NCBI GenBank assembly: GCA_027487145.1
Contig: JAIYEC010000070.1
Coordinates: 4,477 to 68,476, forward strand
Source of the DNA: a bacterium
GTDB lineage: Bacteria > Patescibacteriota > Minisyncoccia > Phycocordibacterales > UBA918
DNA: 64,000 nucleotides
Reading direction: 5' to 3'
The stretch's first letter is position 1. The number at the start of each line of letters is the position of its first letter. Made by a program: the position numbers and the translations under genes. Below the pieces are notes generated by a model that did no database searches, was not told where the DNA came from, and saw only the letters and a list, made by a program, of their open reading frames with translations. Positions 13,323 to 62,377 of this stretch are shown here, one piece after another.

Positions 13323-13447
13323 AAAAGCTACTTTAGCATATTTATTGGATCTGATACACGATTAGGTTTTTTAACAGTGTCAGCCTATTTGATTATTTGC
13401 GGGTGTGCTATAGTCTGTCTTCATTTCTAAAAAAGGGGGATGAAAAA

Positions 13448-13579
13448 ATGCCTACGTTCTTTGAAACCAGCCTGATGGTAGCACTGATTCTTGCTATCTT
13501 CATCATCAGTATTATCGGAATCTCGTATTCCGATCCTGCTCATACGGGCATGATACTTCCAGTAAGTTTTTTGCCCTGA
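13448..13579 (+). CDS. hypothetical small membrane protein
   Basis: An RBS-like ggggga lies upstream of MPTFFETSLMVALILAIFIISIIG. The terminator hairpin at 13601-13640 (gcaatcgcttgtg..cacaagtgattgc + T7) follows. Confidence 0.3.
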   Translation: MPTFFETSLMVALILAIFIISIIGISYSDPAHTGMILPVSFLP

Positions 13580-13689
13580 CGGGCTGTGACTTTGGTCAAA
13601 GCAATCGCTTGTGCACTACACAAGTGATTGCTTTTTTTATATATTGCTGGTATAACTTGCGTCCGTCATTCCGACGGAGGAGACCACTC

Positions 13690-13977
13690 ATGAAGACCAA
13701 TGTGAAGACTACCCTTCTCACTGCCGCTCTCGTCGCCGTCGCCGGCGCTATCGCCACCCAGGTCAAGAAGAGGGGGGTCCGGAACACCGTCGAAGGCATC
13801 AAGGATGGCGGCACCAAAGTGCTCGATGCCGGCAAGAAGTCGATTTTGCAGCTCGTGTCCGACAACACGGACAAGGCGGGCGACGGAGGGTCGATCGAGG
13901 GTGTCGGTGGTCAGCTCACCAGCGATACCAACGAGGGCGACCTCGGCGACCGGGCACTGGAACGCGTCGAAGGCTGA
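13690..13977 (+). CDS. small secreted protein (signal peptide plus Gly/Asp-rich mature part) encoded in a GC-rich islet
   Basis: RBS ggagga, start MKTNVKTTLLTAALVAVAGAIATQ. The local GC content is clearly higher than the flanks. The GC hairpin terminator at 14015-14056 follows. Confidence 0.5.
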   Translation: MKTNVKTTLLTAALVAVAGAIATQVKKRGVRNTVEGIKDGGTKVLDAGKKSILQLVSDNTDKAGDGGSIEGVGGQLTSDTNEGDLGDRALERVEG

Positions 13978-14133
13978 TCCAGCCCTTCAACGCCAGAACT
14001 GCGATCACCTGGTTTCCGCCCCGCTGCGCACATGTTGTGCGGCGGGGCTTTTTCTTTTGTAATCAAAAATTAGGTAAGAGTTGCGTAGCGGTAGCGTCAA
14101 AAAGAAAAGAGGTTCACTTGTAGGGAGGAATAT

Positions 14134-14292
14134 ATGGCTACGCCACCGTCACCTCGTTTCACCTGGCTACAGCAGCTCATTATTTACGTCTTGGTCATTC
14201 TTTTCATTCTTTCTGCCTATGACAAATTTGCAAAGGCAGACTTTTGGGATGACCTAAACAACAAAAAAGTAGTGCCTGAAGCTTCTGAATAA
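14134..14292 (+). CDS. hypothetical 52-aa membrane protein
   Basis: RBS gggagga, MATPPSPRFTWLQQLIIYVLVILFILSAY... It falls below the cutoff of the ORF track. Confidence 0.3.
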   Translation: MATPPSPRFTWLQQLIIYVLVILFILSAYDKFAKADFWDDLNNKKVVPEASE

Positions 14293-14410
14293 TTATAGCC
14301 AACAAAAACTATCTGGGTTATTTCTTTGTTAGCCACCGTCGCCAAACGGTATCTATCAAAGCAATACACTCATGCCACTCACGCTGCGCCTTTCTTGGGC
14401 GCAGTTTTCT

Positions 14411-15802
14411 TTAGGTAAGTTTTGAAATAAGTTCTGAAATATGTACTCGTTCTTGCTCTCCGGTATCTCGATGACGAATAGTGACCGTGTCCTTAAGGTT
14501 TGGATTTTCTTCACCCAAGGTATCGAAGTCAATTACGATACAGTATGGTGTTCCGATTTCATCCTGGCGACGATATCGCTTCCCTACGTTTCCGTTATCG
14601 TCCCACGCAACATTACCAAATTCTTTTTTAAGAGAGACAAATACCTCTCGGGCTTTGGCGACAAGCTCTGGCTTATTTTTAAGCAGTGGTGAGACAGCTA
14701 CTTTGTATGGAGCAAGGTGAATTGGAAGTTTGAGGTATGTACGAATTTCTCCGCCCATTTCATCTTCGGTGTATGCTTCAGCCAAGACTGCGGTAAATGC
14801 GCGACCAACACCAAACGAAGGTTCAAGAACATGTGGAATAAATGGCACACCTTCTGCTGGTGTATAGCGCATCTTTACTCCACTCGCTTCCTCGTGACTC
14901 TTGAGGTCATGGTCAGTACGATACGCAAAGCCAGCCAACTCATCAAAGCCTTTTCCTGGGTAGTTATATTCGAAGTCGATGGTTCGCTTACTGTAGTGAG
15001 CTAGGTCATTTTCAGGCACTTCATACTCACGGATGTTTTCGTCCTTGAGGCCAAGGTGTGCATGCCAGGCTTTGATATCAAGATGTAGTTTCTCAAACTC
15101 TTCTTGCCAATCTTTCTCTTCGACAAAGTACTCGATTTCCATTTGCTCAAATTCGCGGACACGGAAAAGAAATTCGCGCGGTGCAATCTCATTACGAAAT
15201 GCCTTCCCTACCTGCGCGATACCAAACGGCAGCTTTGGTGACATTGAATCAACGACATTTTTGAAATTTACGAAAATACCTTGGGCAGTTTCGGGTCGCA
15301 GATATGATTTCATATCTCCCTCTGCTCCAACTTGGGTTTCAAACATCAAATTAAAATTTTTGACCTCGCCCCAATCACGTTTCTGACATTTCGGACAAAT
15401 TATGTCGGCACCTGATTTAAACTTCATTTGGAACTGTTCCAGGGTTAATCCATCAACACCTGTTTTTCCGTTTTCTTTCAACACATGATCAGCTCGATGT
15501 CTTGTACCGCAGGCATTACAAACTACTACCGGGTCTGAAAAACCCGCACCAGTATGTCCAGATGCTTCCCACACTTTCTCATTCATCAAAATCGCAGCGT
15601 CAAGTCCGTACATATCCTCACGACCATCGACAAACATCTTCCACCACTCTCGCTTAATATTGTTGTTAAGAGCTACACCAAGTGGGCCGAGGTCCCAGGT
15701 TCCTTTCAGCCCACCGTAGATTTCGCTACCCTGAAATACAAAGCCACGTCGTTTGCAAAGACTGACAATTTTATCCATCTTATTATCTTGATTTTCTTTC
15801 AT
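14411..15802 (-). CDS. glyQS: glycyl-tRNA synthetase (alpha2 dimeric type)
   Basis: Class II aaRS motifs, with an N-terminus typical of GlyRS (VSLCKRRGFVFQGSEIYGGLKGTWDLGPLGV). Confidence 0.9.
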   Translation of the reverse strand: MKENQDNKMDKIVSLCKRRGFVFQGSEIYGGLKGTWDLGPLGVALNNNIKREWWKMFVDGREDMYGLDAAILMNEKVWEASGHTGAGFSDPVVVCNACGTRHRADHVLKENGKTGVDGLTLEQFQMKFKSGADIICPKCQKRDWGEVKNFNLMFETQVGAEGDMKSYLRPETAQGIFVNFKNVVDSMSPKLPFGIAQVGKAFRNEIAPREFLFRVREFEQMEIEYFVEEKDWQEEFEKLHLDIKAWHAHLGLKDENIREYEVPENDLAHYSKRTIDFEYNYPGKGFDELAGFAYRTDHDLKSHEEASGVKMRYTPAEGVPFIPHVLEPSFGVGRAFTAVLAEAYTEDEMGGEIRTYLKLPIHLAPYKVAVSPLLKNKPELVAKAREVFVSLKKEFGNVAWDDNGNVGKRYRRQDEIGTPYCIVIDFDTLGEENPNLKDTVTIRHRDTGEQERVHISELISKLT

Positions 15803-15807
15803 AGGTT

Positions 15808-17763
15808 TTACTGCGTAACGAGTCCCCGTTCTTGTGATATTCCTTTAATTTCACTCGTAATTCCCACTACACTAGTCGTAACCAGCGTATTTGTAAAGCG
15901 ATCGACCGCTGAAAGGTTGAGGGTATTTACAAGGGTTGGAGAAGTACCGATCTGTGAGGTGCTCGGTAAGAAGTTAAGGGCGAACGTAAGTTCTTTGGTG
16001 GTGCCGCTCGTAATATCTCCCACACTCCACTCCAGCTGTCTTGAAATTGGATTAAAAGAGACTGTACCTGGTCCAGAGAATTCATTCTGCCATTCAACAA
16101 AGGTTGGAAGCGAGGTCGTAACTACGGTATTACGGAGATTATTGGCTCCACCGCCAGCCACCAGCTTTACTTGATAGCGGGTTGCCTGACCTGGTTTTGG
16201 TGGTAGTGGTCCCGTCACATGCGACAAGCTACCTTCAATACTCGCAGCTGAAGCATACCGAGCTTCGGCGGTCACTGTACCGACTAATTGTTGTACGGCC
16301 GATGGTTCCGAGACTCGCTTGGCATACACATTAACCGCGATATTAAATGAAGCAGTAGTCTGACCAAGCACTGGATCAATCGAGAAGTTAAGATTTCGCA
16401 CCTGGCCCGCCTGCACCTGACTAAACTCGGGTGTGTTGGAGACATCCCACCGCACCAGGTTCTTGTTTGAGTCATAGAATCCCTGGCGACTTTGGATTGA
16501 GTCAGCCTTGAGGGCATTACCAGTTGGCACCACTTCTACGACCATGTCATACACAGGCTCTTTGAGCGTATTTTTAATAGAGACTTGCACCACTGAGCTC
16601 TTATCTTCTTCCAAGACAACGGACTTATCGCGGTCTCCAGCAATATCAATATCGACGGCAATAAATGGTTGTTCCAAGACAAACTCCGCTCTAGCTTCGG
16701 CTAAGAGTGACCCGACAATAAATTCATTATCGTCACGCGAGGCGCCGGCGGTAAAGTCAACTACGAGACCCTCGCTATTGAGTCCAATGATTGATCCGTT
16801 AATGATGATTGTCTCAGTCTCTTCTGGCTTAAGTTCATCAATTTTCCAAACATTTTGATTGTAGAGCGGATCAGGTACGGCTGTTTTGTATGAAAAACCA
16901 CTTGGATATCGACTGGTAATCAAAACATCTTTTAATACTTTATTGGTATTTGATTTGACCTTAAGCGTAATCTGTACTGGCTGACCAGCAGAAACCCTCC
17001 TGACGGAATCCACTTGAAGAATAATTGGCGAAGAGATGATTTGGACATTAAACGGTTCAGCATTTTTATAGAACACTCCGTCAGAACCAACAATCCGATA
17101 CTCCAATGTAGCCTGAATTTGTGACTGTTGGTTTTCTTTTCCGTATACTGCCACTTGGAGTTGAATATTCCGTGCCTCGCCGGGCCCGAGCATCCCCACG
17201 TCTATGCGTTCTTCGTAAAGATTTTTAACTGGCTCAGTGACAGACCGCGTCCCTTCAGGGTATTTCACAATCAGCGAGGCTCCTTCAATTGCCACGGAGT
17301 TTTGATTGGTAACACCAATCTGAAATGAGACTGTTTCCCCACCACTAATATTGTTGTTGCCAGCAATATTAAAGGCGATATTATCGCCGGAAATACGATT
17401 ATTTCCAAAGTAGAAGTATGCCGCTGAACCCGCTGCTACTAAACAAAAAATTATCAGGCTAGCAATCAAAACGAATTTTCGGTACCGGTGTGGTTGCTCG
17501 CTCTGATTAAGAAACGCTGTCTCATCGTCTGCCGGTAAGTCCCAGGTTGCGGAAACCGCCAGCGGATCATCTTCAAGTTGATGACGCTCTATACCATTAT
17601 CAACAGGACCACGGGCATACAATCGCTTTCGAAGCTCATCAAGTTCTCGCTGGTCACGAATATCGGACATGCCAGTAGTATACCACCACTCTTTTCTAGA
17701 GATGACTGAGTGATACTGCCTTTTCAATAATCGGTGCCAGGACCTTCTCGGTAGTAGTATCAA
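15808..17763 (-). CDS. hypothetical membrane-anchored protein with a large beta-rich extracytoplasmic domain
   Basis: Cytoplasmic N-terminus, a single TM helix (FVLIASLIIFCLVAAGSAAYFYF), then about 520 aa rich in V, S, T and N with repetitive beta-strand character. Confidence 0.55.
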   Translation of the reverse strand: MILLPRRSWHRLLKRQYHSVISRKEWWYTTGMSDIRDQRELDELRKRLYARGPVDNGIERHQLEDDPLAVSATWDLPADDETAFLNQSEQPHRYRKFVLIASLIIFCLVAAGSAAYFYFGNNRISGDNIAFNIAGNNNISGGETVSFQIGVTNQNSVAIEGASLIVKYPEGTRSVTEPVKNLYEERIDVGMLGPGEARNIQLQVAVYGKENQQSQIQATLEYRIVGSDGVFYKNAEPFNVQIISSPIILQVDSVRRVSAGQPVQITLKVKSNTNKVLKDVLITSRYPSGFSYKTAVPDPLYNQNVWKIDELKPEETETIIINGSIIGLNSEGLVVDFTAGASRDDNEFIVGSLLAEARAEFVLEQPFIAVDIDIAGDRDKSVVLEEDKSSVVQVSIKNTLKEPVYDMVVEVVPTGNALKADSIQSRQGFYDSNKNLVRWDVSNTPEFSQVQAGQVRNLNFSIDPVLGQTTASFNIAVNVYAKRVSEPSAVQQLVGTVTAEARYASAASIEGSLSHVTGPLPPKPGQATRYQVKLVAGGGANNLRNTVVTTSLPTFVEWQNEFSGPGTVSFNPISRQLEWSVGDITSGTTKELTFALNFLPSTSQIGTSPTLVNTLNLSAVDRFTNTLVTTSVVGITSEIKGISQERGLVTQ

Positions 17764-18274
17764 TAGTTATCTTGGCTAACTCAGTAATGTCTATATCGAC
17801 GATTTCGGGCAATACCCGGGCATCTACATATCCTAATTCTCGCAGTATCCGGACCATAATAATGTGCTCAACCGTACTGCGGGTACCAACGTCTTTGGCC
17901 AAGACACGAAGCGAGACTAAGAAATAATCGAACAATACTGGGAAGGCTTCTTCCCCACCATAAAATCGACGTAAAAATTTTGTAATAGCAACAACACTTC
18001 CGCGCGCTGCTTTATCAGACGCAGACATGAAAAAATTTTCTCGTGACTCAATACTACCAACCTTCCAACTACTCTTACCCTTAACAAGCGAGACTCGAAC
18101 GTAGGAAAAGTCTTGTAGTGCCATCCGTTGGCGAGAACGTTCTTCGCGTACACTCTTAGCTTCCGCATACAACATACCTGCTTCACGGGTGAATAAGAGA
18201 TATGAACGATCTGCGGTGTTTCGATTGAATGTACCACATATAATCGCTTCAGTCGTATATGTCTGATATGCCAT
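17696..18274 (-). CDS. recO: DNA repair protein RecO-like (short)
   Basis: An N-terminal OB-fold pattern (TEAIICGTFNRNTADRSYLLFTREAGMLYAEAKSVRE) resembles RecO. At 192 aa it is shorter than typical RecO. Confidence 0.5.
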   Translation of the reverse strand: MAYQTYTTEAIICGTFNRNTADRSYLLFTREAGMLYAEAKSVREERSRQRMALQDFSYVRVSLVKGKSSWKVGSIESRENFFMSASDKAARGSVVAITKFLRRFYGGEEAFPVLFDYFLVSLRVLAKDVGTRSTVEHIIMVRILRELGYVDARVLPEIVDIDITELAKITIDTTTEKVLAPIIEKAVSLSHL

Positions 18275-18409
18275 ATTACGCGGTTATAAAAAAGCGATTA
18301 ACTTCTTCTCCTTGCACAAAATACCCCTCACCGTACAAGCAAGTACGACTCGAAGTATTTTGTTGGTGTTCATCGTTTCTCATCTTTTTTCTAACCGCTT
18401 TGTCAGTGG

Positions 18410-21400
18410 TTATTTATTTTTTGTTATTGAGAAAATAAATTGTTCAGTATCAGTCGCTACCACTTCCCCATCAGTATCAGCGAAGATAAGTTCACTTGCA
18501 CCAACTGTCTTTACCAGCATGTCGTGATAGGTCTCAATGGCAGTTCGGCCAGGATGTGAAGTACTGATGGTAAGGACAATTGCATCCTGGGGCGCAAGAC
18601 CTTCGGTCTTGCGCCGTCCCTGCACTGCTCGCATCAGTTCACGCACATTTCCTTCGGCAATAAGTTCTGGGGTAAGAACAGTATCAATCGAAACAGCATC
18701 TCCAACGATGTACTTCTTGGCATTCATCTCATCCAAAACAATTATTCTCAGTTTTTCAGAAATATCAGAACCGGTGACACTCATGATAGGTTGTCTTACC
18801 TTAATATTTGCTTTTGTTCGAGCATCAAGCGCTTTCGCTACGATATCTCGCACAATGTTCATGTCTTTAATTACTTCTTGTGGGACCAGGGATGTCTCTG
18901 GCCACTTTTCAAGATGGACGCTCTCTGTATCACTATCCTCTTTTACCTGCTGCCACAGGTACTCGGCGTAGAATGGCATCACTGGAGCCATTACTTTAGC
19001 AAGATCTCTGAGGACATAACGAAGAGTTGCAATTCCATTAGTCCTATCATCTACGTTATCCCCCTTTAGCCTGTCCCGACTTCGTCTGAGGTACCAAGTT
19101 GAGAGATCATCAATGAAATCTGTGATTGGTCGGACGGCTTTATCAAGTTCATAGCCCTTGTAGCCTGCAGTCGATTCGTTTACAAGTTCTTGTAAACGAA
19201 TGAGTATCCATCTATCAAGAATATTCGTAGAAGTAGTATCAGCTTTTGTACCATCCCTTACCATCTGAAACATCTCAAATACATTATGTAGCCGTCCGAT
19301 ATTCTTGCGCTGTAGTTCGAGTACTTCTTTTTCTGAGAAGTTGAGGTCTTCTCCCTTTACAATCGGGGCTGAGAGCAGATAGAAACGCATAGCGTCTACT
19401 CCGGTACGATTGGCCAGCTCCATTGGGTCGGGGTAGTTTTGGAGTGACTTACTCATCTTCTTGCCATCCTCCGCGAGTGTGAGTCCATTTACCACTACAT
19501 TCTCAAACGGACTCTTTCCAAAAAGTGCTACTCCAAGAACAATCAATGAATAGAACCAGCCACGGGTTTGGTCGAGTCCTTCAGCAATAAAGTTGGCTGG
19601 GTAACAGGTTTTGAGAAACGCTTCAGGATTTTCTCCCATGAAGTGATGCTGAGCGTACGGCATCGATCCACTCTCAAACCAACAGTCAAACACATCTGGC
19701 ACACGTTCGAGCTGTACGCCATTTTCAAACAACGTAATGTTATCGATGTACGGACGGTGGAAGTCGAGTTCAAAGTGGTCGTTGTGTGGGAAAGGTGTGA
19801 AATCAATCTCGTGGAGACTACCAGTTTTAATATCACCTTCGGTATCCCAGCCTTTGACAATATCTTTATCAGAGACTCCTTCAGCTCCCCACTTCAAAAG
19901 GCGAAGTGGTAAACCATGTGAGACAAACAAAATATTTTTGCCTTGGTGTTTTGCTTCAACCTCAAATAGTACTTCGAGCATTCGACGCTTAATCTGCTGC
20001 CAACTTTCTCCACCCTCTTGATGAGCTGTCATTTTCTTATCTGGGGGGAGTCCGTCACGATAGGCATACCATTCTTCAACCGGACGACCCTCTAATACTC
20101 CGCCTTCATTTTCACGCAATCTCTCATCGACGATTACTTGCTCAGGAGAAAGACCAAGTGTCTGTGCTACTAACGCGGCCGTATCTTTCGTTCGCTTAAG
20201 TGGCGAGACATACACAAGATCGATTTGTTTATCGGCTAGTTCAGTGATAGTGGCTGCTACCTGCTCCTTCCCTCTTTCAGTCAGGGTATATGGATCTGAT
20301 GGAGATGAACTTAGAATGTGGTTGATGTTATGTTCTGCCTCACCATGACGCATCATGAAAAAGCGGTTGTTGTTTTTTGGTACATATGCCTGAAGTTCAG
20401 CTAGTGATCCGAATACCTTATAAGACTTCGTTTCAGGATTTCGCCAGATCGGAAGCGGTGCACCCCAATAACGCTGACGAGAAACCGCCCAATCGCGAGC
20501 TCCCTCAAGCCACTTCCCAAAGCGATTGCTTCCCACATGGTCTGGGACCCAATTCACGGTATTATTTGCTGCAAGCAAATCATCTTTAATGGCTGGAACA
20601 TTAACGAACCACGATGTAGTCGCGTAATTAAGAAGTGGTGTATCACAGCGCCAACAGTGCGGGTAGCTGTGGGTGATATTTTCTTTTTTTACAACCACTC
20701 CCTTGGCCTGCAAAAATCGCAACACTTCAATGTCGGTATCTTTATGATCGACCTCCGCTTTATCGTCGTCCTTTGGCTTCACCAGACGACCGGCAAAATC
20801 GGTGACGAAGTCTTTAAAGCGCCCTGCCTCATCAACGTGATGGAAGATTGGTACGCCATGGGCTTGAGCCAGCTTCATGTCGTCATCACCATAGGCTGGT
20901 GCAATATGTACCGCACCAGTACCGTCCTCTCCTACTTCGACATAGTCAGCATGACGAATAACCCAACCGTTCTCAGCTCCTTCAAGTTGCTGTTCTTGGA
21001 TATACGTAAATGGTGGCTGGTATCGCTTTCCAACTAAATCACTTCCTTTCATTTCTTCTACCACCTCGTGAGCGATATCACCTAGTTGGGCTAGTCGGCC
21101 TTTGGCTAAGATGTAATATTCACTCTCAACTTTTACCTTTACATAGGTAATGTCGCTATGCACCGCAGCTGCGATATTTCCTGGCAGGGTCCATGGCGTA
21201 GTCGTCCAAACAAGGAGACTCGTGTCAGTTGCATTACCTGAATCATCTAAGAGTGGGAGCTTCACAGTCACGGCAATATCTTTGATGTCTTTGTATCCTT
21301 GGTTTACTTCAAAGTTAGAGAGCGTCGTCCCACAGCGTGGACACAAGTGCATAGTCTTGAACCCTTCAAATACCAATCCCTTATCATGAAGTGACTTAAA

Positions 21401-21931
21401 CACCCACCACACACTTTCGGTATAGGTACTATCCATCGTCTTGTAGTCGTCAGCCATATCAACAAACCGACCCATTCGGGGAATAATCTCTCGCCAATCG
21501 TCAGCGTAGCGCATCACTGCACCGCTCGCTTTTTCGTTAAAATTCTTCACGCCGTACTCTTCGATGTCACGCTTGGTACCAAGTCCAAGTTCTTTTTCTA
21601 TCAGGTTTTCAAGTGGCAAACCGTGACAGTCCCACCCCCACTTTCGTGCGACCTGATAGCCATTCATCGTCCAAAAACGCGGAATAGCATCTTTGATGGT
21701 TCCAGCCAAAATATGCCCATAGTGTGGTAGACCGGTGGCAAAGGGTGGTCCATCATAAAAAACAAATTGTCCTACCGGCGCGGCGCCAGCTGGTGTCTCT
21801 AACGTCTTATTAAAAATATCTCGCTCTCGCCAAAACGTGAGCATAGCTTCTTCACGAAGTGCAACGTCACTTTTTGGGACATCAGACACCACTTCAACTG
21901 TGTCATTTTCACGACCATGTATTTTGTTCAT
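18410..21931 (-). CDS. ileS: isoleucyl-tRNA synthetase (type 2 / eukaryote-like) with an inserted histidine-phosphatase (PGAM-like) domain
   Basis: PFATGLPHYGH (HIGH), KMSKS, CP1 editing region, WAVSRQRYWGAPLPIW and DCWFESGSMPYAQ. An insert of about 190 aa between the last two carries RHGEAEHN, SPLKRTKDTA and FVSHGLP. Confidence 0.9.
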   Translation of the reverse strand: MNKIHGRENDTVEVVSDVPKSDVALREEAMLTFWRERDIFNKTLETPAGAAPVGQFVFYDGPPFATGLPHYGHILAGTIKDAIPRFWTMNGYQVARKWGWDCHGLPLENLIEKELGLGTKRDIEEYGVKNFNEKASGAVMRYADDWREIIPRMGRFVDMADDYKTMDSTYTESVWWVFKSLHDKGLVFEGFKTMHLCPRCGTTLSNFEVNQGYKDIKDIAVTVKLPLLDDSGNATDTSLLVWTTTPWTLPGNIAAAVHSDITYVKVKVESEYYILAKGRLAQLGDIAHEVVEEMKGSDLVGKRYQPPFTYIQEQQLEGAENGWVIRHADYVEVGEDGTGAVHIAPAYGDDDMKLAQAHGVPIFHHVDEAGRFKDFVTDFAGRLVKPKDDDKAEVDHKDTDIEVLRFLQAKGVVVKKENITHSYPHCWRCDTPLLNYATTSWFVNVPAIKDDLLAANNTVNWVPDHVGSNRFGKWLEGARDWAVSRQRYWGAPLPIWRNPETKSYKVFGSLAELQAYVPKNNNRFFMMRHGEAEHNINHILSSSPSDPYTLTERGKEQVAATITELADKQIDLVYVSPLKRTKDTAALVAQTLGLSPEQVIVDERLRENEGGVLEGRPVEEWYAYRDGLPPDKKMTAHQEGGESWQQIKRRMLEVLFEVEAKHQGKNILFVSHGLPLRLLKWGAEGVSDKDIVKGWDTEGDIKTGSLHEIDFTPFPHNDHFELDFHRPYIDNITLFENGVQLERVPDVFDCWFESGSMPYAQHHFMGENPEAFLKTCYPANFIAEGLDQTRGWFYSLIVLGVALFGKSPFENVVVNGLTLAEDGKKMSKSLQNYPDPMELANRTGVDAMRFYLLSAPIVKGEDLNFSEKEVLELQRKNIGRLHNVFEMFQMVRDGTKADTTSTNILDRWILIRLQELVNESTAGYKGYELDKAVRPITDFIDDLSTWYLRRSRDRLKGDNVDDRTNGIATLRYVLRDLAKVMAPVMPFYAEYLWQQVKEDSDTESVHLEKWPETSLVPQEVIKDMNIVRDIVAKALDARTKANIKVRQPIMSVTGSDISEKLRIIVLDEMNAKKYIVGDAVSIDTVLTPELIAEGNVRELMRAVQGRRKTEGLAPQDAIVLTISTSHPGRTAIETYHDMLVKTVGASELIFADTDGEVVATDTEQFIFSITKNK

Positions 21932-22164
21932 ATATAAAACTAATTAATGTATATCAGACATTCCTAAAAGTGCTATGCCGGCGAACTTCGCTCATCACAC
22001 CACTTTTAGAGCTATGGTGTATCAGACCACGTTCAAATAGTACCACCCTTTCTAGATTTGGGAACCTTTTAGATACTTGTGTTTATGAATGCTTGCATTA
22101 CCAAAAAAGAAGAGTATTATCGTCAGTCGCACTACATCACTTGATACTTGCAGGGGGACAAACC

Positions 22165-22632
22165 ATGGCAAATACTCGTAAACGTAAAGATGTTCTTTGT
22201 ATCCGCTGTTCAGACAGTCGTAGTCGACTGCCGAGAAAGCTCCGATTTCTTCAATGGTTTAACTGGCTGCCGTGGCTGCCGTTTGTCTCAGTACATGAGA
22301 TCCGTAAGCCTGGTGGCGTAACAAATACCTACTATCGGGCTCGCAACACCAAACAGGAATTGCCGCTAGAGAAGTTTAAAGCGCTTCTGATCGAAAACAT
22401 CGATGTGATGGTGAAGATTAAGGATGTGAACGAAATTGTGATCATTTCTCACAATCTTTGCGGCGCGGCAGATGCTCTGGGTTTTACCTGTGAGGATACT
22501 CTCCAATCAAATATTGACTTCGTTCAAAAAATCAAAGAACTTTATCCCACAGTTAAGATCACGGTACTGCATGAGACTCATTCGGCGTCTGGACTCTGGC
22601 ATTACGGACATCGTCTAGTCCTTACATTGTAA
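22165..22632 (+). CDS. small beta-class carbonic anhydrase-like protein
   Basis: CIRCSDSRS (C-x-D-x-R) and ISHNLCGAA (H-x-x-C-G), RBS ggggga. The longer ORF from 21859 overlaps ileS and was trimmed. Confidence 0.5.
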   Translation: MANTRKRKDVLCIRCSDSRSRLPRKLRFLQWFNWLPWLPFVSVHEIRKPGGVTNTYYRARNTKQELPLEKFKALLIENIDVMVKIKDVNEIVIISHNLCGAADALGFTCEDTLQSNIDFVQKIKELYPTVKITVLHETHSASGLWHYGHRLVLTL

Positions 22633-22762
22633 GGGTTTCACCATGATGCCAAGGCGGCGCAGCAATGCGCCGCTCTTTTTCTTTTACCTATCCCCCGAAT
22701 CTATCATTACATTGTTGCCATGACTCACTTTGAGGAGTATCATGCGCATCTAAAAATTACAT

Positions 22763-23170
22763 ATGTCAGAAAATAATCAAAATGGTCTTGCTATCACGTG
22801 CGTTGATGCTCGCCTGCACCGTTATTCAATTACTCCGCAAGTTGCAGCGTTACTCGGTGTCGATAATGTGTACGTTCGAACATTAGTCGGCCCAGAATCA
22901 CGCATTTTAGGGGGTGAGCAAAGTGTTCACTTGCAATCACTCCGTTTATCAATGACCGATCTTGTACCACTAAAGAACATTAAAAAAGTAGCTGTTATCG
23001 GTCATTGTGATTGTGCTGGACATCCAGTTTCAGATCAACAACATGAAAAGGACTGTGTGTCTGTTATCACAGTATTACGAGAATTTTTTCCGGAACTTGA
23101 GTTTGTACCAATGATTGCTAGTGAGGCTGAAACTGAAAGACCTTGGAACGTTAGAATAATTGGCTCGTAG
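22763..23170 (+). CDS. small beta-class carbonic anhydrase-like protein (paralog)
   Basis: ITCVDARL (C-x-D-x-R) and IGHCDCAGH (H-x-x-C-x-G), 135 aa. Confidence 0.45.
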   Translation: MSENNQNGLAITCVDARLHRYSITPQVAALLGVDNVYVRTLVGPESRILGGEQSVHLQSLRLSMTDLVPLKNIKKVAVIGHCDCAGHPVSDQQHEKDCVSVITVLREFFPELEFVPMIASEAETERPWNVRIIGS

Positions 23171-23294
23171 TTCACAATGACAGCGTATACCCAAAGGCAC
23201 ACGCTGTTTTTTGTAAAAAGAAAAAGCCGGTTCTCCCCGAAGGGAAAACCGGCCACGCCTAGGCGTATTAGTTTGAAGGGTGCCGAGAGGAGTG

Positions 23295-24737
23295 TTAACC
23301 CTCCTTCGGCTTTGCCAGCTGTAGGTGAAGTGCCTCGCGCGTACTCCAGGGACCACAGAAGCCGAGAGTGACAATCGCCACCCAGGCAGTGACCGGCAGC
23401 ACGAGTTCGAGACCAGGGATGTTCTCCTTGGCAATTACTGCTGCCAAGACGACGCCGATTGCACCAACCTGCCGAACTGAGGCGATGTATCGAGCCATTC
23501 TCATCGTGACCTGCTTGAGCGCCATGGGAATGGCAAGGCCCAAAAAGGCTGATGGGTACCTGACGAAGATCAGCAACACGGCTGACAAAACGCCAAACAT
23601 CCAGAAGTCCCAGAAGGGACCCCACTCGACAAGACTGCCGCCCAACACGAAGATGGGAGGAATGAACAGCCGTTCAATCTTCTCATCGTACGCGTGCTTG
23701 CCATGTTCGAAGTGTTTTTCAGCCACGAGTATGAGCCCGGCCCCAAAACACCCAAGGAAGACGTTGCCACCAAGCCAGCTCGTCAGACAAAACGCCGCGG
23801 CTTGTGCAAGCACAAAAGCCCAGATGTCGTAGAAAACTGCATCGGAAGCCTCGGTGGACTCTTCCTCGTTCGGTTCACTCTTGCTCTTGAGCTTGAGAAT
23901 ATCCCGAATGGTGGCATCGTTACCCTGCACTTCGATTTCGCGGAACACTTGAAGGATGTACAGGGCCAAAGCCCCAGCAAAGCCCCCAACGAGAGCCCAG
24001 CCCACCTTAGCGCCGAGAAAACTTGCTGACTCAGCACTGAACACAGCGCCGAATCCATCTTCATATCCCCAGACCCGAACCAGCGTACCAGTAACGGCCA
24101 TGGGGAGGAATGTTGCAAGCACCAGGAGCGCACCAGTGACATCAGTCAGTCCACTTTCGGTGAGGACAATATCCCGAGCACGAGGCACAAACCAGGTAAG
24201 AGCAACCATGATCGGAATCAGGGCTGCTGGATCTGTCGAAGCCAAGATGGCACCGGTCATAATTGCCGAGACAGCTGACACCTCGATTCCAAGAAGTGGC
24301 CCGAGGATGTAATATTGGCCGACGGCAAACAGGAACGCGGTTGCGAGCAGAGTCACCACACTGAGGAGTGAGGTCACCAGCAGGGTCTTCATGAAGTCGG
24401 AGATCTTGATGCTCAGTCCCGTTTTCAAGAGAACACTAGTGGCAAAATAGACCAGCGCACCCACAACCACTTCACGGAGTGATTCCATGTATGTTGCAAG
24501 GATGATGCCGAAGATGAGGAAAAGCATTTCCCGAGGGAAGATGGTTCTCCTTGCAAGCACGACACCAGCGATGATGCTAAACGCAATTGCGCCAAGAGCT
24601 CCCACGTAAGGAGCAACGTGCCCCTCGGTTCCCTCATGGAGACTGTGCGTGAACGCAGAGCCGAACTGGCGGAGCCAGATCGTAATGCCGACTGCGATCA
24701 CAATCAGCAGATACGGTTTGATTTTTGCAAAGCTCAT
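23295..24737 (-). CDS. monovalent cation:proton antiporter (CPA1/NhaP-like)
   Basis: Polytopic membrane protein with the ILASTDPAA motif. GC content is clearly above the surroundings, and every frame here is an open ORF in the track. Confidence 0.6.
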   Translation of the reverse strand: MSFAKIKPYLLIVIAVGITIWLRQFGSAFTHSLHEGTEGHVAPYVGALGAIAFSIIAGVVLARRTIFPREMLFLIFGIILATYMESLREVVVGALVYFATSVLLKTGLSIKISDFMKTLLVTSLLSVVTLLATAFLFAVGQYYILGPLLGIEVSAVSAIMTGAILASTDPAALIPIMVALTWFVPRARDIVLTESGLTDVTGALLVLATFLPMAVTGTLVRVWGYEDGFGAVFSAESASFLGAKVGWALVGGFAGALALYILQVFREIEVQGNDATIRDILKLKSKSEPNEEESTEASDAVFYDIWAFVLAQAAAFCLTSWLGGNVFLGCFGAGLILVAEKHFEHGKHAYDEKIERLFIPPIFVLGGSLVEWGPFWDFWMFGVLSAVLLIFVRYPSAFLGLAIPMALKQVTMRMARYIASVRQVGAIGVVLAAVIAKENIPGLELVLPVTAWVAIVTLGFCGPWSTREALHLQLAKPKEG

Positions 24738-24852
24738 GGCTTTACCCCTTTTCGATTTTGATGAACTTGAGAACAGTCACCCACAAATGTGGCACCCTCA
24801 TACAGTACACAAAAAACCTTATTTGTCAAACTTTTTTTGAGCTTTTTATAGA

Positions 24853-26550
24853 TTACATCCGCTCTGGAGCTTTGATACCAAGTGTCCACAAACCATTTTT
24901 GAGGGTAGTAGCGACAGCTTTAGCGACAGCCGCTTTGTATGTAGCATATTCATCAGAGGCATCAGCGATTTTCTCATGCGCATAGAAAGAATTGAACTCC
25001 CCTGCTAGTTCAGTGAGATACCCAGTGACTTTGTGCGGAGCGCGATCAGCTAATGCACTTATGATAACGCTCGGAAATTGCGCGAGCAACTTTTCTACCG
25101 CATACGCACTAGGTGGTACAACCTGGATACTTGGAAACACACCAGCTTCTTTGGCTTTATCGAGCACTGACTGAATGCGAGCGTAGGTGTATTGCAAGTA
25201 CGGACCTGAGTCTCCTTCAAATGAGAGGGCGCTATCTTTATCAAAAACTGAGTTTTGGAGAATGTTTCCTCTAAGCGTTGCATACTTGATTGCGGCGATT
25301 GCGATGTCACGCGACAATTCCATATCTTCAAGACCACTACTTATTTTCATCTTCTCAAACGTAGCCCCAGCCACTTCGTCAATAAAATCAATTGCTGCAA
25401 TCACATCCCCTGTTCTCGAAGACATTTTTCCTGATGCAAGCCGCACCGTTCCATGTCCGATATGTTCTGTTTTAGCTGCAAGACCCGGATACACTTCCCC
25501 CATCGCAGAGAGGAGAACCTTGAAGTATTCAGTGATTTCATTTGCAGTTGAAATAACTGAGTGATCATATTGACCAAGACGTTCTTCTTTTAGTTTTGCA
25601 AGCGCAAGTTCTTTTGCTTCATAGGTCGGAAGTCCCTCCTTGTTTAAAAAGACGCGAGTATGAAGCCCTTTTGACTCGCCATCATAAATCCGAGCTCCGT
25701 CACTTTCTAAGAAGATTTCTGGATTATTAAGTACAAGCTCCTTCCCTCTTGGACCAGCTTCACTTTCAAAAAAGTACTCATCAAATTTAGTATCAACGAG
25801 CGCATAAATTGTCTCAAAGTACTCAAGGGAAACCGTTCGTCCAGCATCATAAAGCGTATTAATGGTACTGTCTTCTTTACTATATATTTTTTTATTTATA
25901 TCTCGTATCGCGAGAGCAGCCACTTCGTCTGTTTTATAGATGGTTGCACCAAGGGCATAAGCTCTCCCAAGATCTCTAGCCGAAAAAGTGCTTTCCGGAG
26001 TAAGTCCAAGCTGTTGCATCCCGTAGATGGCATGAGCCACATGAAGTCCAACATCTCCCTGATAGTTCACTCGCTTTGTGTCGGCGCCATTCATCATGAA
26101 AAGTCGGGCGATACTTTCACCCACAGCATTCGTGAAGAGATGCCCAATATGAAATTCCTTAAATGGATTTGGGTCGGTGTATTCAACCACCACCTTCTTT
26201 CCTTTCCATGACTGATTACGACCCCACGCTTCTTCATTTTGAAGAATTGTATTAAGTGTATCGGTGAAAACTTCACGAGATACAATGAAGTTAAGAAAAC
26301 CAGGACCAGCGACTTCAATCGACGCAACGTGCGGGATGGTACCTTCAAGCGCCGCGAGTAATTGCTCGGCAATTACTCGCGGCGCTTGGCCGGCTTGTTT
26401 TGATGCCGCCATAGCTACATTAGAAAAATAATCAGCGTGCGCAGATTTATCAGTTGGATAATCCACCACAAAATCTACCGCTTCAATTCCCAGGCTCTTG
26501 AGCGCGTCTGTGATAGAGTGTCTAATCGTCTCCTTCATGTGTGGGTACAA
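24853..26550 (-). CDS. argS: arginyl-tRNA synthetase
   Basis: N-terminal add-on domain, the HIGH-region variant FHIGHL, and a DALR-type anticodon-binding C-terminus, 565 aa. Confidence 0.9.
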   Translation of the reverse strand: MYPHMKETIRHSITDALKSLGIEAVDFVVDYPTDKSAHADYFSNVAMAASKQAGQAPRVIAEQLLAALEGTIPHVASIEVAGPGFLNFIVSREVFTDTLNTILQNEEAWGRNQSWKGKKVVVEYTDPNPFKEFHIGHLFTNAVGESIARLFMMNGADTKRVNYQGDVGLHVAHAIYGMQQLGLTPESTFSARDLGRAYALGATIYKTDEVAALAIRDINKKIYSKEDSTINTLYDAGRTVSLEYFETIYALVDTKFDEYFFESEAGPRGKELVLNNPEIFLESDGARIYDGESKGLHTRVFLNKEGLPTYEAKELALAKLKEERLGQYDHSVISTANEITEYFKVLLSAMGEVYPGLAAKTEHIGHGTVRLASGKMSSRTGDVIAAIDFIDEVAGATFEKMKISSGLEDMELSRDIAIAAIKYATLRGNILQNSVFDKDSALSFEGDSGPYLQYTYARIQSVLDKAKEAGVFPSIQVVPPSAYAVEKLLAQFPSVIISALADRAPHKVTGYLTELAGEFNSFYAHEKIADASDEYATYKAAVAKAVATTLKNGLWTLGIKAPERM

Positions 26551-47895: not shown

Positions 47896-47970
47896 TGGCG
47901 GCTATAGTATAATGGTTAATGCATCGGTTTGTGGTACCGAGAATTCGGGTTCAATTCCCGGTAGCCGCCC
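47896..47970 (+). tRNA. tRNA-His (anticodon GTG), with encoded G-1 pairing to C73
   Basis: Folded manually. A 7-bp acceptor stem (gcggcta/tagccgc) with an extra G-1:C73 pair, D arm gtat/atgc with a GG loop, anticodon stem tcggt/accga with loop ttGTGgt, T arm tcggg-ttcaatt-cccgg, and a trailing CC. Confidence 0.85.
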
Positions 47971-48045
47971 CTTTTAGAGCTAGCACGAGAAGGCTACAAA
48001 AATGAACCTCAATTGGGGTTCATTTTTGTAGCCTCTGGTATGCAA

Positions 48046-62324: not shown

Positions 62325-62377
62325 TTCCTGGACACAATTAAAAAAACCGGCATACGCCGGCTTTTTTAATTGTGTCC
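62325..62377. repeat. near-perfect inverted repeat with arms of about 25 bp (cctggacacaattaaaaaaaccggc..gccggcttttttaattgtgtccagg) whose right arm is the tRNA-Leu 3' end; it also works as a bidirectional terminator
   Basis: Read directly from the sequence, with one mismatch in the arms. Confidence 0.65.

What the first reader, a model, noticed from the sequence alone, without database searches (positions are those of the whole stretch)
19796..20368. Histidine-phosphatase (PGAM-like) domain inserted inside isoleucyl-tRNA synthetase
About 190 residues carrying RHGEAEHN, SPLKRTKDTA and FVSHGLP are inserted between WAVSRQRYWGAPLPIW and the ELDFHRPY/DCWFESGSMPYAQ segment of the IleRS catalytic core. 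These are the hallmarks of the histidine phosphatase superfamily, branch 1. Other IleRS enzymes have only a short zinc-knuckle linker at this position. A phosphatase or mutase fold embedded in an essential aaRS is unusual. It could act on a nucleotide by-product such as Ap4A or 2',3'-cyclic phosphates, or it could be a structural co-option. That functional idea is my own inference.
Basis: partly seen in the sequence, partly recalled or inferred. Interest (0 to 1): 0.65.

Follow-up and report, generated by a model that had tools for sequence, protein, structure and literature searches.

The report
Histidine phosphatase nested inside isoleucyl-tRNA synthetase
The essential enzyme that loads isoleucine onto tRNA carries a complete, apparently active phosphatase domain in its catalytic core; this is normal for a large group of tiny uncultured bacteria, related lineages encode the same phosphatase as a separate gene just upstream of the synthetase gene, and its substrate is unknown.

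Summary
Window 18410-21931 (- strand) is one uninterrupted 1173-aa type-2 IleRS. Residues about 517-722 form a branch-1 histidine phosphatase domain (Pfam His_Phos_1, E = 6e-35). It sits at the tip of the zinc-knuckle hairpin, where solved IleRS structures have about 8 residues.

The insert is not rare. All 120 nearest protein clusters carry it, as do at least 583 GTDB species genomes, mostly labelled Parcubacteria/Paceibacteria. A 2013 paper noted in one sentence an IleRS split by "phosphoglycerate mutase domains" in SR1.

R528, H529, N535, R580, E607, E642 and H672 are invariant in 121 sequences, while the rest of the insert is only 38% identical. This points to an active enzyme. It resembles the small phosphomonoesterases (PspA, PhoE, CobC, GpgP) and reaches no curated family cut-off, so it is not a recognisable phosphoglycerate mutase.

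The closest free-standing relatives lie in a tight argS-phosphatase-ileS operon whose ileS lacks the insert. Standalone and inserted states are intermixed on the IleRS and ArgRS trees. The same domain is also nested in ValRS and fused to ArgRS and TsaC.

I read it as the cis form of a phosphatase partner of class I synthetases. The substrate is undetermined; the Ap4A and cyclic-phosphate ideas have no support.

The parts
18410..21931 (-). ileS gene: 1173-aa type-2 (eukaryote-like) isoleucyl-tRNA synthetase with a nested phosphatase domain
   Evidence: Single ORF. TIGR00392 scores 863.6 bits against a cut-off of 621.4. Best solved relatives are type-2/eukaryotic IleRS at 650-670 bits, against 320 bits for S. 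aureus type 1. The AF2 model has pLDDT 92.5 and pTM 0.86. It matches 8c8u, 7d5c and 1ile with TMt 0.81-0.84.
20384..21931 (-). IleRS aa 1-516: first half of the Rossmann/HUP catalytic domain (HYGH at 70), the CP1 editing domain (TTPWTLPGN at 244), and the WAVSRQRYWGAPLPIW strand up to the N-terminal arm of the former zinc knuckle
   Evidence: This region is 79% identical on average to 120 homologues.
19766..20383 (-). Inserted segment, aa 517-722: histidine phosphatase domain plus its two linkers
   Evidence: Corresponds to about 8 residues in solved IleRS. Insert length is 197-211 aa in 121 sequences. The AF2 model of aa 506-737 has pLDDT 92.7 and pTM 0.89. In the full-length model the insert blocks have pLDDT 86-97. 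GC is 0.448 against 0.459 for the rest of the gene.
19862..20359 (-). Pfam His_Phos_1 (PF00300) match, aa 525-690
   Evidence: E = 6e-35, 121 bits.
20345..20350 (-). Codons for R528-H529 (RHG motif; H529 is the predicted phospho-accepting nucleophile)
   Evidence: Invariant in 121/121 sequences. Coordinates.
20192..20194 (-). Codon for R580 (second phosphate-pocket arginine, in the SPLxR motif)
   Evidence: Invariant in 121/121.
20111..20113 (-). Codon for E607 (predicted proton donor, in the RLRE motif)
   Evidence: Invariant in 121/121. Assigned by spacing to E83/E89 of PhoE/dPGM (established knowledge).
19916..19918 (-). Codon for H672 (second catalytic histidine, in the SHG motif)
   Evidence: Invariant in 121/121.
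18413..19765 (-). IleRS aa 723-1173: DFHRPYID arm, DCWFESGSMPYAQ helix, second half of the catalytic domain with KMSKS (825), anticodon-binding domain and C-terminal DUF5915 domains
24853..26550 (-). argS (ArgRS, 565 aa), the conserved upstream neighbour of the phosphatase/ileS unit
   Evidence: Pfam Arg_tRNA_synt_N + tRNA-synt_1d + DALR_1. argS lies upstream of ileS in 62 of 80 GTDB loci and upstream of the standalone phosphatase in 38 of 49 metagenome loci.
17696..18274 (-). recO-like gene, the conserved downstream neighbour of ileS
   Evidence: Pfam RecO_N. recO lies downstream of ileS in 69 of 80 GTDB loci.

Best explanation
The gene encodes a bifunctional protein. It is a complete type-2 IleRS whose zinc-knuckle hairpin carries at its tip an autonomous, catalytically competent branch-1 histidine phosphatase. 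The hairpin lies in the second half of the catalytic Rossmann fold, between the WGxPLPIW strand and the DxWFESGS helix, upstream of KMSKS. The phosphatase is of the small PhoE/PspA/CobC/GpgP-like phosphomonoesterase type. It would act through a phospho-His529 intermediate, with the R528/R580/H672/N535 pocket and E607 as proton donor.

The domain is the cis form of a free-standing protein of about 190 aa. Sister Patescibacteria lineages encode that protein in a tight argS-phosphatase-ileS operon next to an insert-less ileS. Lineages have switched between the two arrangements several times.

I infer that the phosphatase works together with class I synthetases, in trans or tethered. It would dephosphorylate something produced or needed at the adenylation/aminoacylation site. 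My ranking of candidates is first a small by-product of the ATP-to-AMP+PPi chemistry (PPi or a nucleotide monophosphate), then a phosphorylated tRNA end.

Shown: the anatomy, the conservation, the cis/trans duality, the synteny and the multiple fusions. Inferred: catalytic activity, functional coupling to IleRS, and the substrate.
For: Domain identity and insertion point.

Catalytic residues R528, H529, N535, R580, E607, E642 and H672 are invariant in 121/121 sequences. The insert is only 38% identical on average, against 77-79% for the IleRS core. Insert length is kept at 197-211 aa.

The same residues are conserved in IleRS that are only 34-45% identical overall.

The full-length AF2 model is confident through the insert and both linkers, with pTM 0.86.

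The insert is lineage-wide.

The standalone closest relatives sit between argS and an insert-less ileS. The gaps are 1-10 nt in L082. In 40 of 49 metagenome loci ileS lies downstream, 37 of them within 150 nt. In 38 of 49, argS lies upstream.

The insert-less ileS has a short CxxC...CxC hairpin exactly at the insertion site.

States A (standalone) and B (inserted) are intermixed on the IleRS core tree, with a minimum of 6 changes and mixed sister clades at bootstrap 96-99. They are also intermixed on the neighbouring ArgRS tree at bootstrap 98-100.

There are independent attachments of the same subfamily to other enzymes:
- ValRS, nested at a different site (P0224, and P0400 at full length).
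- ValRS with four tandem copies (P0141).
- IleRS with two copies, some at a second site (P0150, P0165).
- ArgRS C-terminal fusion, 3 clusters.
- TsaC C-terminal fusion, 5 clusters.
Against: No biochemical data exist, and no tool here could name a substrate. All NCBIfam equivalogs (dPGM_arch, CobC, PspA, GpmB, SixA) score far below their cut-offs.

The distance between the phosphatase pocket and the synthetic site or tRNA path is therefore unknown.

Gene fusion in these bacteria can be promiscuous. TsaC is more often fused to unrelated DNA-repair domains. Fusion and adjacency are thus weaker evidence of shared function than usual.

A ValRS, IleRS, ArgRS and TsaC partner set fits PPi or AMP better than tRNA, but it also fits neighbour-driven fusion in compact genomes.

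At least one Parcubacterium is reported to have an H+-pyrophosphatase and a cofactor-independent PGM (PMC5220378). An extra PPase is therefore not obviously needed.

The trees are neighbour-joining trees on divergent sequences. The number and direction of transitions is approximate.
Confidence: 0.5

Rival explanations
1. Passenger enzyme. The domain is an ordinary housekeeping phosphomonoesterase, for example a phosphoserine, sugar-phosphate or ribazole-type phosphatase. Its chemistry has nothing to do with aminoacylation. It happened to lie next to ileS and was captured in a permissive surface hairpin. It is kept because this guarantees co-expression in a streamlined genome.
For: The best sequence and structure matches are metabolic phosphatases: PspA 4ij5/4ij6, GpgP 4pz9/6s2q, CobC 6nru/6e4b and PhoE 1h2e. 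The insertion site is a hairpin tip that tolerates 8 to more than 400 extra residues. Patescibacterial TsaC is fused to clearly unrelated domains such as the MGMT DNA-binding domain, TruB and a glycosylase. This shows that fusion alone is weak evidence here. The insert surface evolves fast, at 38% identity.
Against: The same phosphatase subfamily was attached independently to four ATP-pyrophosphate-releasing, tRNA-related enzymes, at different sites. The argS-phosphatase-ileS order persists even where ileS has been replaced by a different IleRS type. Switches between standalone and inserted states recur. The linkers are conserved and modelled with high confidence, which suggests a fixed orientation on IleRS.
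Confidence: 0.3
2. tRNA-end repair. The domain removes a 2'- or 3'-terminal phosphate from tRNA, so that damaged or processed tRNA(Ile) can be charged by the neighbouring synthetic site.
For: All aaRS partners (IleRS, ValRS, ArgRS) are class I enzymes that need a free A76 2'-OH (established knowledge). The family has a short cap region like the open-pocket members PhoE and SixA. A bifunctional RNase H/acid phosphatase model is the second-best NCBIfam hit, at 85-88 bits, but this is far below its cut-off of 326.
Against: No histidine-phosphatase family member is known to me as an RNA 3'-phosphatase (own knowledge). TsaC, another fusion partner, does not bind tRNA directly. No RNA-binding feature was detected. 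Geometry relative to the acceptor-end path could not be measured.
Confidence: 0.1
3. It is the cell's cofactor-dependent phosphoglycerate mutase, a glycolytic enzyme moonlighting inside IleRS.
For: The best NCBIfam model by score is the archaeal-type dPGM NF038349, at 94.7-98.4 bits.
Against: That score is far below the cut-off of 225. TIGR01258 pgm_1 scores 33 against 81.7. Solved dPGMs superpose poorly, with rmsd above 7 A, while small phosphatases superpose at 2.5-3.3 A. A studied Parcubacterium is reported to use a cofactor-independent PGM (PMC5220378).
Confidence: 0.05
4. Non-catalytic structural co-option, or an artefact such as an assembly chimera, an intein or a pseudogene.
For: The zinc-ligand cysteines of the host hairpin were lost in this subclade, so the domain may now also stabilise that region.
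Against: All catalytic residues are invariant. There are hundreds of independent assemblies from different sources with the same architecture. Composition matches the host gene. No Hint/intein family appears in the Pfam scan, and the whole insert is accounted for by the phosphatase fold.
Confidence: 0.03

Closest known systems
SR1 / ACD80 isoleucine-tRNA synthetase described by Kantor et al. 2013 (mBio, PMC3812714)
   Same: This is a Candidate Phyla Radiation IleRS interrupted by 'phosphoglycerate mutase' (His_Phos_1) domains. It is the only literature mention I found. My searches also found multi-copy versions: P0150, P0165, P0166, P0241 and P0249.
   Different: The SR1 enzyme is reported with a Nudix domain plus two PGM domains that split it into four regions. 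The window protein has a single domain at one site and comes from a Parcubacteria/Paceibacteria-like genome. The paper gives one sentence, with no analysis of catalytic residues, distribution, standalone homologues or function. I could not retrieve the SR1 sequence to verify it.
Small branch-1 histidine phosphatases: PspA (4ij5/4ij6), PhoE (1h2e), CobC (6nru, 6e4b), GpgP/Rv2419c (4pz9, 6s2q), Rv3214 (2a6p)
   Same: Same fold and same catalytic constellation (RHG, R, E, H). Size is similar at about 190-210 aa. Foldseek gives TMt 0.72-0.79, rmsd 2.5-3.3 A and 24-30% identity.
   Different: All of those are free-standing metabolic enzymes. The window domain reaches none of their curated family cut-offs. 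It is nested in an aaRS.
Cis/trans accessory modules of aaRS: ProRS INS domain versus free-standing YbaK/ProXp; AlaRS editing domain versus AlaX
   Same: The same module occurs either inserted in or fused to the synthetase, or as a separate protein. The state varies between lineages (own knowledge of those systems; for this system).
   Different: Those modules are aminoacyl-tRNA deacylases with a known proofreading role and unrelated folds. Here the module is a phosphatase of unknown substrate. This is a resemblance in evolutionary pattern only.
Lineage-specific inserts at or near the same loop of class Ia synthetases (zinc knuckle of T. thermophilus-type IleRS; leucine-specific domain of bacterial LeuRS)
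   Same: The topological position is the same: between the WG-x-P-I/L-P strand and the D-x-W-F-x-S helix, preceding KMSKS. Insert-less relatives show the CxxC...CxC hairpin there. The LeuRS comparison is from my own knowledge and was not tested.
   Different: Those inserts are 30-60 aa and non-enzymatic. This one is a whole 200-aa enzyme domain.
NCBIfam NF040702 'isoleucine--tRNA ligase, N-acetyltransferase domain-containing', and Rv2228c-type RNase H/acid phosphatase fusions (NF005567)
   Same: Both are precedents. The first is an IleRS carrying an extra enzymatic domain. The second is a His_Phos_1 domain fused to a nucleic-acid enzyme. Both appear in the hit lists.
   Different: The window protein scores 309 bits against a cut-off of 1999 for NF040702, and 85 against 326 for NF005567. 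It belongs to neither family.

Membership tests
Histidine phosphatase superfamily, branch 1 (Pfam PF00300) | Profile match above the curated threshold | tested here: met
   121.1 bits in the whole protein and 126.1 bits for the insert alone, against a cut-off of 21.7.
Histidine phosphatase superfamily, branch 1 (Pfam PF00300) | Catalytic core: RHG nucleophile motif, second Arg, second His, acidic proton donor | tested here: met
   R528-H529-G530, R580, H672 and E607, plus N535 and E642, are present and invariant in 121/121 sequences. They are also conserved in distant members.
Histidine phosphatase superfamily, branch 1 (Pfam PF00300) | Alpha/beta fold of the superfamily | tested here: met
   The AF2 model has pLDDT 92.7. 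Foldseek gives probability 1.00 to PspA, GpgP, CobC, PhoE and Rv3214, with TMt 0.72-0.79.
Histidine phosphatase superfamily, branch 1 (Pfam PF00300) | Phosphatase or mutase activity through a phosphohistidine intermediate | not testable with these tools
   Requires enzymology.
Cofactor-dependent phosphoglycerate mutase (TIGR01258 pgm_1; NF038349 dPGM_arch) | Score above the curated family cut-off | tested here: not met
   33.1 against 81.7 for pgm_1, and 98.4 against 225 for dPGM_arch. dPGM structures align with rmsd above 7 A.
PspA / CobC / GpmB / SixA equivalogs | Score above the curated family cut-off | tested here: not met
   PspA 69.7 against 350. CobC 70.3 against 162.9. GpmB 64.1 against 261. 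SixA 34.9 against 74.5.
Isoleucyl-tRNA synthetase (TIGR00392), type 2 | Equivalog score above cut-off; closer to type-2/eukaryotic than to type-1 IleRS | tested here: met
   863.6 bits against 621.4. PDB type 2 scores 651-671 bits against 320 for type 1. Structural TMt is 0.77-0.84 against 0.65-0.77.
Isoleucyl-tRNA synthetase (TIGR00392), type 2 | Class I signature motifs HIGH and KMSKS, and the CP1 editing domain | tested here: met
   HYGH at 70, KMSKS at 825 and TTPWTLPGN at 244. The editing-domain PDB entries 1wk8 and 1ue0 match aa 212-425.
Mupirocin-resistance IleRS MupA/MupB; GNAT-containing IleRS (NF040702) | Score above the exception-model cut-off | tested here: not met
   MupB 671.9 and MupA 640.8, against 1900. 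NF040702 309.1 against 1999.
Intein / selfish insertion | Hint-domain splicing motifs; homing endonuclease | tested here: not met
   The Pfam scan of the whole protein (E up to 0.01) returns only aaRS families and His_Phos_1. The whole insert folds as one phosphatase domain.
CPR IleRS interrupted by PGM-family domains (Kantor et al. 2013) | IleRS reading frame interrupted by one or more His_Phos_1 domains in a Candidate Phyla Radiation genome | tested here: met
   The Nudix domain reported for SR1 is absent here.

The most novel reading that the evidence does not exclude
The phosphatase is a dedicated, previously unrecognised accessory enzyme of the aminoacylation machinery in Patescibacteria. 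It serves class I synthetases (IleRS, ArgRS, ValRS) either in trans, from an argS-X-ileS operon, or in cis, as a nested domain placed beside the KMSKS region. It hydrolyses a phosphorylated product of the reaction. That product could be PPi, which would make it a histidine-phosphatase-type pyrophosphatase that pulls adenylate formation. It could also be a nucleotide or a tRNA-end phosphate. The repeated conversion between the standalone gene and an insertion at the same hairpin would then be selected substrate channelling.
Probability: 0.3. Interest if true: 0.85.

Novelty: new member of a known kind. Interest (0 to 1): 0.6.

Why it matters
Aminoacyl-tRNA synthetases are among the best-studied enzymes. 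Even so, a second, apparently active catalytic centre sits inside the catalytic domain of IleRS in hundreds of species of a major bacterial radiation, and nobody has asked what it does. A February 2026 survey of IleRS domain evolution does not mention it.

The cis/trans duality found here gives a clean experimental handle. The handle is a standalone gene in an argS-X-ileS operon set against the nested domain, with repeated switches between them and parallel captures by ValRS, ArgRS and TsaC. One can compare a natural fused enzyme, a natural split pair and point mutants.

If the phosphatase is coupled to aminoacylation, it would be a new kind of accessory activity in translation. It would also be an example of how streamlined symbionts rewire core machinery. 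If it is a passenger, it is still a striking case of repeated whole-domain insertion from a neighbouring gene into the same loop of an essential enzyme.

In practical terms, NCBI names several of these proteins only 'class I tRNA ligase family protein' or 'hypothetical protein'. Annotation could be improved.

Tried and rejected
1. The look-up of encoding contigs with the window protein found no exact copy on record. The window's own contig and taxonomy could not be retrieved.
A narrower alignment, A2, worked.
3. A chimeric query (ArgRS tail + TsaC fusion + ValRS junction) was meant to survey three fusions in one search. It recovered only the ArgRS fusions, not even the TsaC or ValRS self-hits. 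TsaC was then searched separately. The spread of ValRS::His_Phos beyond P0224/P0400 and P0141 remains unsurveyed.
4. The His_Phos domain tree is too poorly resolved to say whether inserts are monophyletic; most bootstraps are below 50. Only two mixed clades are supported.
5. The pyrophosphatase idea could not be tested by gene presence or absence. No ppa-like or second His_Phos sequence occurs in the 64-kb window, which is uninformative. The literature gave only an H+-PPase and an iPGM in one Parcubacterium.
6. L143 (His_Phos + cytidylyltransferase-like) and P0259 (His_Phos + weak AlkB-like, 27 bits against a cut-off of 31.2) were considered as further tRNA/nucleotide fusions. I set them aside as distant or sub-threshold.
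7. Intein, assembly chimera and recent horizontal transfer of the insert were rejected.
8. Eight literature searches combined IleRS, aaRS, CPR, Patescibacteria, histidine phosphatase and PGM. Only the 2013 sentence turned up.
9. The geometry of the phosphatase pocket relative to the synthetic site could not be extracted, because the structure tool returns no coordinates.
Full report
**1. The observation**

Window 18410-21931 on the minus strand is a single open reading frame of 1173 codons.
- Pfam finds two stretches of the class I synthetase catalytic domain (tRNA-synt_1, E = 5e-130), the anticodon-binding domain, and the C-terminal DUF5915.
- Nested between the two catalytic stretches is His_Phos_1 (PF00300) at residues 525-690, with E = 6e-35.
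- The protein passes the NCBIfam ileS equivalog at 863.6 bits against a cut-off of 621.4.
- All quoted motifs are present at the expected positions. HYGH (70), KMSKS (825) and the editing-domain signature are intact.

Alignments to solved IleRS locate the insert. Residues 516 to 721/723 correspond to only about 8 residues in P. megaterium IleRS2 (8c8v 477-485) and human IARS1 (9w01 490-498). The insert is therefore about 205 aa, window 19766-20383.

The host is a type-2, eukaryote-like IleRS. It scores 651-671 bits against type-2/eukaryotic structures and 320 bits against S. aureus type 1. The full-length AF2 model has pLDDT 92.5 and pTM 0.86. It superposes best on PmIleRS2, yeast IleRS and T. 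thermophilus IleRS, with TMt 0.77-0.84.

Base composition of the insert (GC 0.448) matches the rest of the gene (0.459).

**2. How common it is**

The insert is not a curiosity of this genome.
- All 120 best protein clusters (64-82% identical, from NCBI, JGI, ENA and Logan assemblies) carry PF00300 in the same architecture.
- An exhaustive phmmer search with the insert against 1.84 billion representatives gave 14,011 hits. About 100 of the best 150 are IleRS, complete or contig-truncated, with the domain at the same place. Their overall identity to the window protein goes down to 34-35%.
The 80 best all cover the whole insert.
- Record titles name Kaiser-, Zambryski-, Wolfe-, Lloyd-, Vogel-, Nomura-, Azam- and Nealsonbacteria, Paceibacteria/-ota, Minisyncoccia, Parcubacteria and 'Patescibacteria group'. 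Many records are titled 'uncultured Candidatus Saccharibacteria'. That is the depositors' label, which I did not verify.

Eight full-text literature searches found one relevant sentence. Kantor et al. [quoted passage not shown] A February 2026 preprint devoted to IleRS domain evolution mentions neither a phosphatase nor these bacteria.

**3. What the domain is**

Conservation was measured in 121 aligned sequences.
- R528, H529 (RHG), N535, R580 (SPLxR), E607 (RLRE), E642 (GES) and H672 (SHG) are invariant.
- The insert as a whole is only 38% identical to the query, against 79% and 77% for the two halves of the IleRS core.
- Insert length stays within 197-211 residues.
- The same residues are conserved in IleRS that are only 34-45% identical overall.

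This is the signature of selection on catalysis, not merely on a fold.

The AF2 model of residues 506-737 is confident, with pLDDT 92.7 and pTM 0.89. Its closest solved structures are small phosphomonoesterases (sequence level):
- H. thermophilus phosphoserine phosphatase PspA (4ij6, TMt 0.79, rmsd 2.5 A);
- mycobacterial glucosyl-3-phosphoglycerate phosphatases (6s2q, 4pz9);
- CobC (6nru, 6e4b);
- PhoE (1h2e);
- Rv3214 (2a6p).

True cofactor-dependent mutases align with rmsd above 7 A. Every curated NCBIfam equivalog (dPGM, archaeal dPGM, CobC, PspA, GpmB, SixA) scores far below its cut-off.

So the domain is a member of the superfamily and of no characterised family within it. By size and structural neighbours it works like a phosphatase rather than a mutase. 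That last step is inference.

**4. Where it sits**

More distant members keep CxxC upstream and CxC/CxxC downstream of the insert. Insert-less relatives have a short hairpin there. An example is L087: 'VWRCNNCKKEIVFGSAKELKDASGTEVKDLHKDIVDEVIFDCKCGG'.

The phosphatase is therefore inserted at the tip of the zinc-knuckle hairpin in the second half of the Rossmann fold. This lies between the WGxPLPIW strand and the DxWFESGS helix, about 100 residues upstream of KMSKS. The window's subclade has lost the four cysteines (WRNPETKSYK ... LFENGVQLE).

The first and last strands of the domain (523-528 and 706-709) are adjacent in sequence to the two arms. The C-terminal linker (P715, N717, E721, L722) is nearly invariant. 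Both linkers are modelled with pLDDT above 90. This suggests a fixed orientation rather than a floppy one.

I could not obtain coordinates. The distance to the synthetic site is unknown.

**5. The main new evidence: a cis/trans pair**

The closest free-standing relatives of the insert are about 190 aa. An example is P0163. Another, P0222, comes from a Staskawiczbacteria MAG. They are encoded between argS and ileS on the same strand with gaps of 1-10 nt, and that ileS has no insert and is 962-1001 aa long.

A metagenome scan with these standalone proteins returned 57 loci.
- 49 have a standalone phosphatase gene.
- In 40 of those 49, ileS follows, 37 times within 150 nt. The other contigs end too early.
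- In 38 of the 49, argS precedes.
- 7 loci instead have argS followed by ileS with the phosphatase inserted.

All 80 GTDB loci have the inserted form. argS lies upstream in 62 of them and recO downstream in 69.

The window has the same order: argS 24853-26550, ileS::phosphatase, recO 17696-18274. Here, however, a 2.9-kb block lies between argS and ileS. It holds a GC-rich Na+/H+-exchanger-like gene and two small plus-strand ORFs. There is no second phosphatase copy or remnant in the window.

**6. Repeated switching and repeated capture**

On a neighbour-joining tree of the IleRS core, the two states are intermixed. The tree uses 902 columns with the insert removed, 116 sequences and 100 bootstraps.
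- At least 6 state changes are needed, against about 29 for shuffled labels.
- Two mixed sister groups have bootstrap 99 and 96.
- Pairwise identities agree. L087-type insert-less IleRS are 58-60% identical to some insert-bearing IleRS but only about 50-57% to other insert-less groups. L108-type insert-bearing IleRS are as close to insert-less L103/L128 (62%) as to other insert-bearing ones.

The tree of the neighbouring ArgRS shows the same intermixing, at bootstrap 98-100. One ArgRS clade (bootstrap 100) is followed by three different kinds of ileS. So ileS has been replaced while argS-phosphatase stayed.

The phosphatase tree itself is poorly resolved. It does nest the L108/L109 inserts inside a standalone clade at bootstrap 99.

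The direction of change, and the roles of transfer, deletion and re-insertion, remain open. These are NJ trees on divergent sequences.

The same phosphatase subfamily is also found in other proteins:
- nested in ValRS at a different site, after DTWFSSG...LGWP (P0224, and the full-length 1140-aa P0400);
- as four tandem copies after a ValRS N-terminal part (P0141);
- as two copies in IleRS, in tandem or at a second site past KMSKS (P0165, P0150);
- fused to the C-terminus of ArgRS (three clusters from different sources);
- fused to the C-terminus of the threonylcarbamoyl-AMP synthase TsaC (five clusters).

**7. Interpretation**

Several things are shown: an intact IleRS, an intact-looking phosphatase active site under purifying selection, a conserved operon partner that alternates with the nested form, and parallel attachments to other ATP-consuming, PPi-releasing, tRNA-related enzymes.

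From this I infer that the phosphatase functions with class I synthetases. I read the nested domain as the tethered version of a trans-acting partner.

The partner set shares one chemical feature, ATP to X-AMP + PPi. Three of the insertion sites flank the KMSKS-bearing subdomain that handles the pyrophosphate moiety (established knowledge). On that basis I rank the candidate substrates as follows:
1. PPi or a nucleotide monophosphate;
2. a tRNA 2'/3'-phosphate;
3. an unrelated metabolite.

The evidence is weak, for these reasons.
- Histidine phosphatases are classically monoesterases.
- At least one Parcubacterium has an H+-PPase.
- TsaC in these bacteria is more often fused to plainly unrelated DNA-repair domains, so fusion can be neighbour-driven.

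The 'passenger' reading therefore keeps substantial weight, at 0.3.

It fits poorly with ArgRS, which to my knowledge does not make Ap4A. Cyclic phosphodiesters are not typical substrates of this fold. A glycolytic mutase role, a purely structural role, an intein and an artefact are all disfavoured.

**8. Verdict**

The feature is real, and the domain assignment and insertion point are right. It is ordinary for its lineage and was noticed once, in passing, in a related lineage. I therefore file it as a new member of a known but uncharacterised kind.

Its interest lies in what is still unknown, the substrate and any coupling to aminoacylation. It also lies in the cis/trans, multi-capture pattern documented here, which makes the question directly testable.

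Noticed in passing
window 23100-24750 (ORF 23295-24737, - strand): This is a GC-rich island (0.52-0.58, against about 0.45 around it) with strongly positive AT skew. It encodes a Na+/H+-exchanger-like protein. Together with two small plus-strand ORFs it lies between argS and ileS and breaks an adjacency that is tight in most related loci. It may be a horizontally acquired block.
   Followed up: partly
window 22763-23170 (+) and 21859-22632 (+): There are two small ORFs on the opposite strand, just upstream of ileS. The first matches Pfam Pro_CA_2 (putative carbonic anhydrase, E = 5.5e-12). The second has no Pfam hit, and its 5' end overlaps the ileS start.
   Followed up: no
window 11883-26550: Four aminoacyl-tRNA synthetase genes are clustered on the minus strand within 15 kb: MetRS 11883-13322, a class II tRNA-synt_2b/HGTP_anticodon enzyme 14411-15802, IleRS and ArgRS. 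recO and a DUF11 surface-type protein lie between them.
   Followed up: no
window 27688-30282 (-): This 864-aa ORF has no Pfam family at E up to 0.001. The neighbouring ORF 26558-27649 has only a DUF2914 match.
   Followed up: no
P0150, P0165, P0166, P0241, P0249, P0371 (related IleRS): These IleRS variants carry two histidine phosphatase domains. In P0165 they are in tandem at the canonical site. In P0150 the second copy sits at another site, after the KMSKS/SC-fold region. This resembles the SR1 enzyme described in 2013.
   Followed up: partly
P0145 (1066 aa): This is an IleRS-like protein with an IS200-like Y1 transposase domain (aa 340-461) inside the editing region. It also has a His_Phos_1 insert (680-854) and a C-terminal GNAT acetyltransferase domain. 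It may be a mosaic or a misassembly.
   Followed up: no
P0141 (1161 aa) and P0224/P0400: In P0400 the same phosphatase is nested in ValRS at aa 577-752, after DTWFSSG...LGWP. That is a different loop from the IleRS site. P0141 is a ValRS N-terminal part followed by four tandem His_Phos_1 domains.
   Followed up: partly
P0405-P0519 (relatives of TsaC fusion P0266): Patescibacterial TsaC (threonylcarbamoyl-AMP synthase) is very often fused to the MGMT DNA-binding domain PF01035. It is sometimes fused to TruB or to a methylpurine glycosylase domain (PF02245). This shows promiscuous domain fusion in these genomes.
   Followed up: no
L088, L089, L093, L133 (ileS downstream of standalone phosphatase): This is a divergent IleRS type, about 31% identical to the window enzyme. 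It has 'GPITANNPMGVHHAWGR' in place of the usual HIGH region and 'HKSKGN' in place of KMSKS. It still sits in the argS-phosphatase-ileS order.
   Followed up: no
L071:11805-12350: This GTDB genome has the inserted form of ileS. It also has a separate 182-aa His_Phos-like ORF about 4 kb downstream, so inserted and free copies can coexist.
   Followed up: no
L143:5971-6957: This protein joins a more distant His_Phos_1 domain (nearest model CobC) to a cytidylyltransferase-like domain of the TagD/RfaE type. It probably belongs to a different pathway.
   Followed up: partly
window 47898-47971 (+) and 62372-62456 (-): The only RNA genes detected in the window are tRNA-His(GTG) and tRNA-Leu(GAG). There is no tRNA-Ile nearby.
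   Followed up: no
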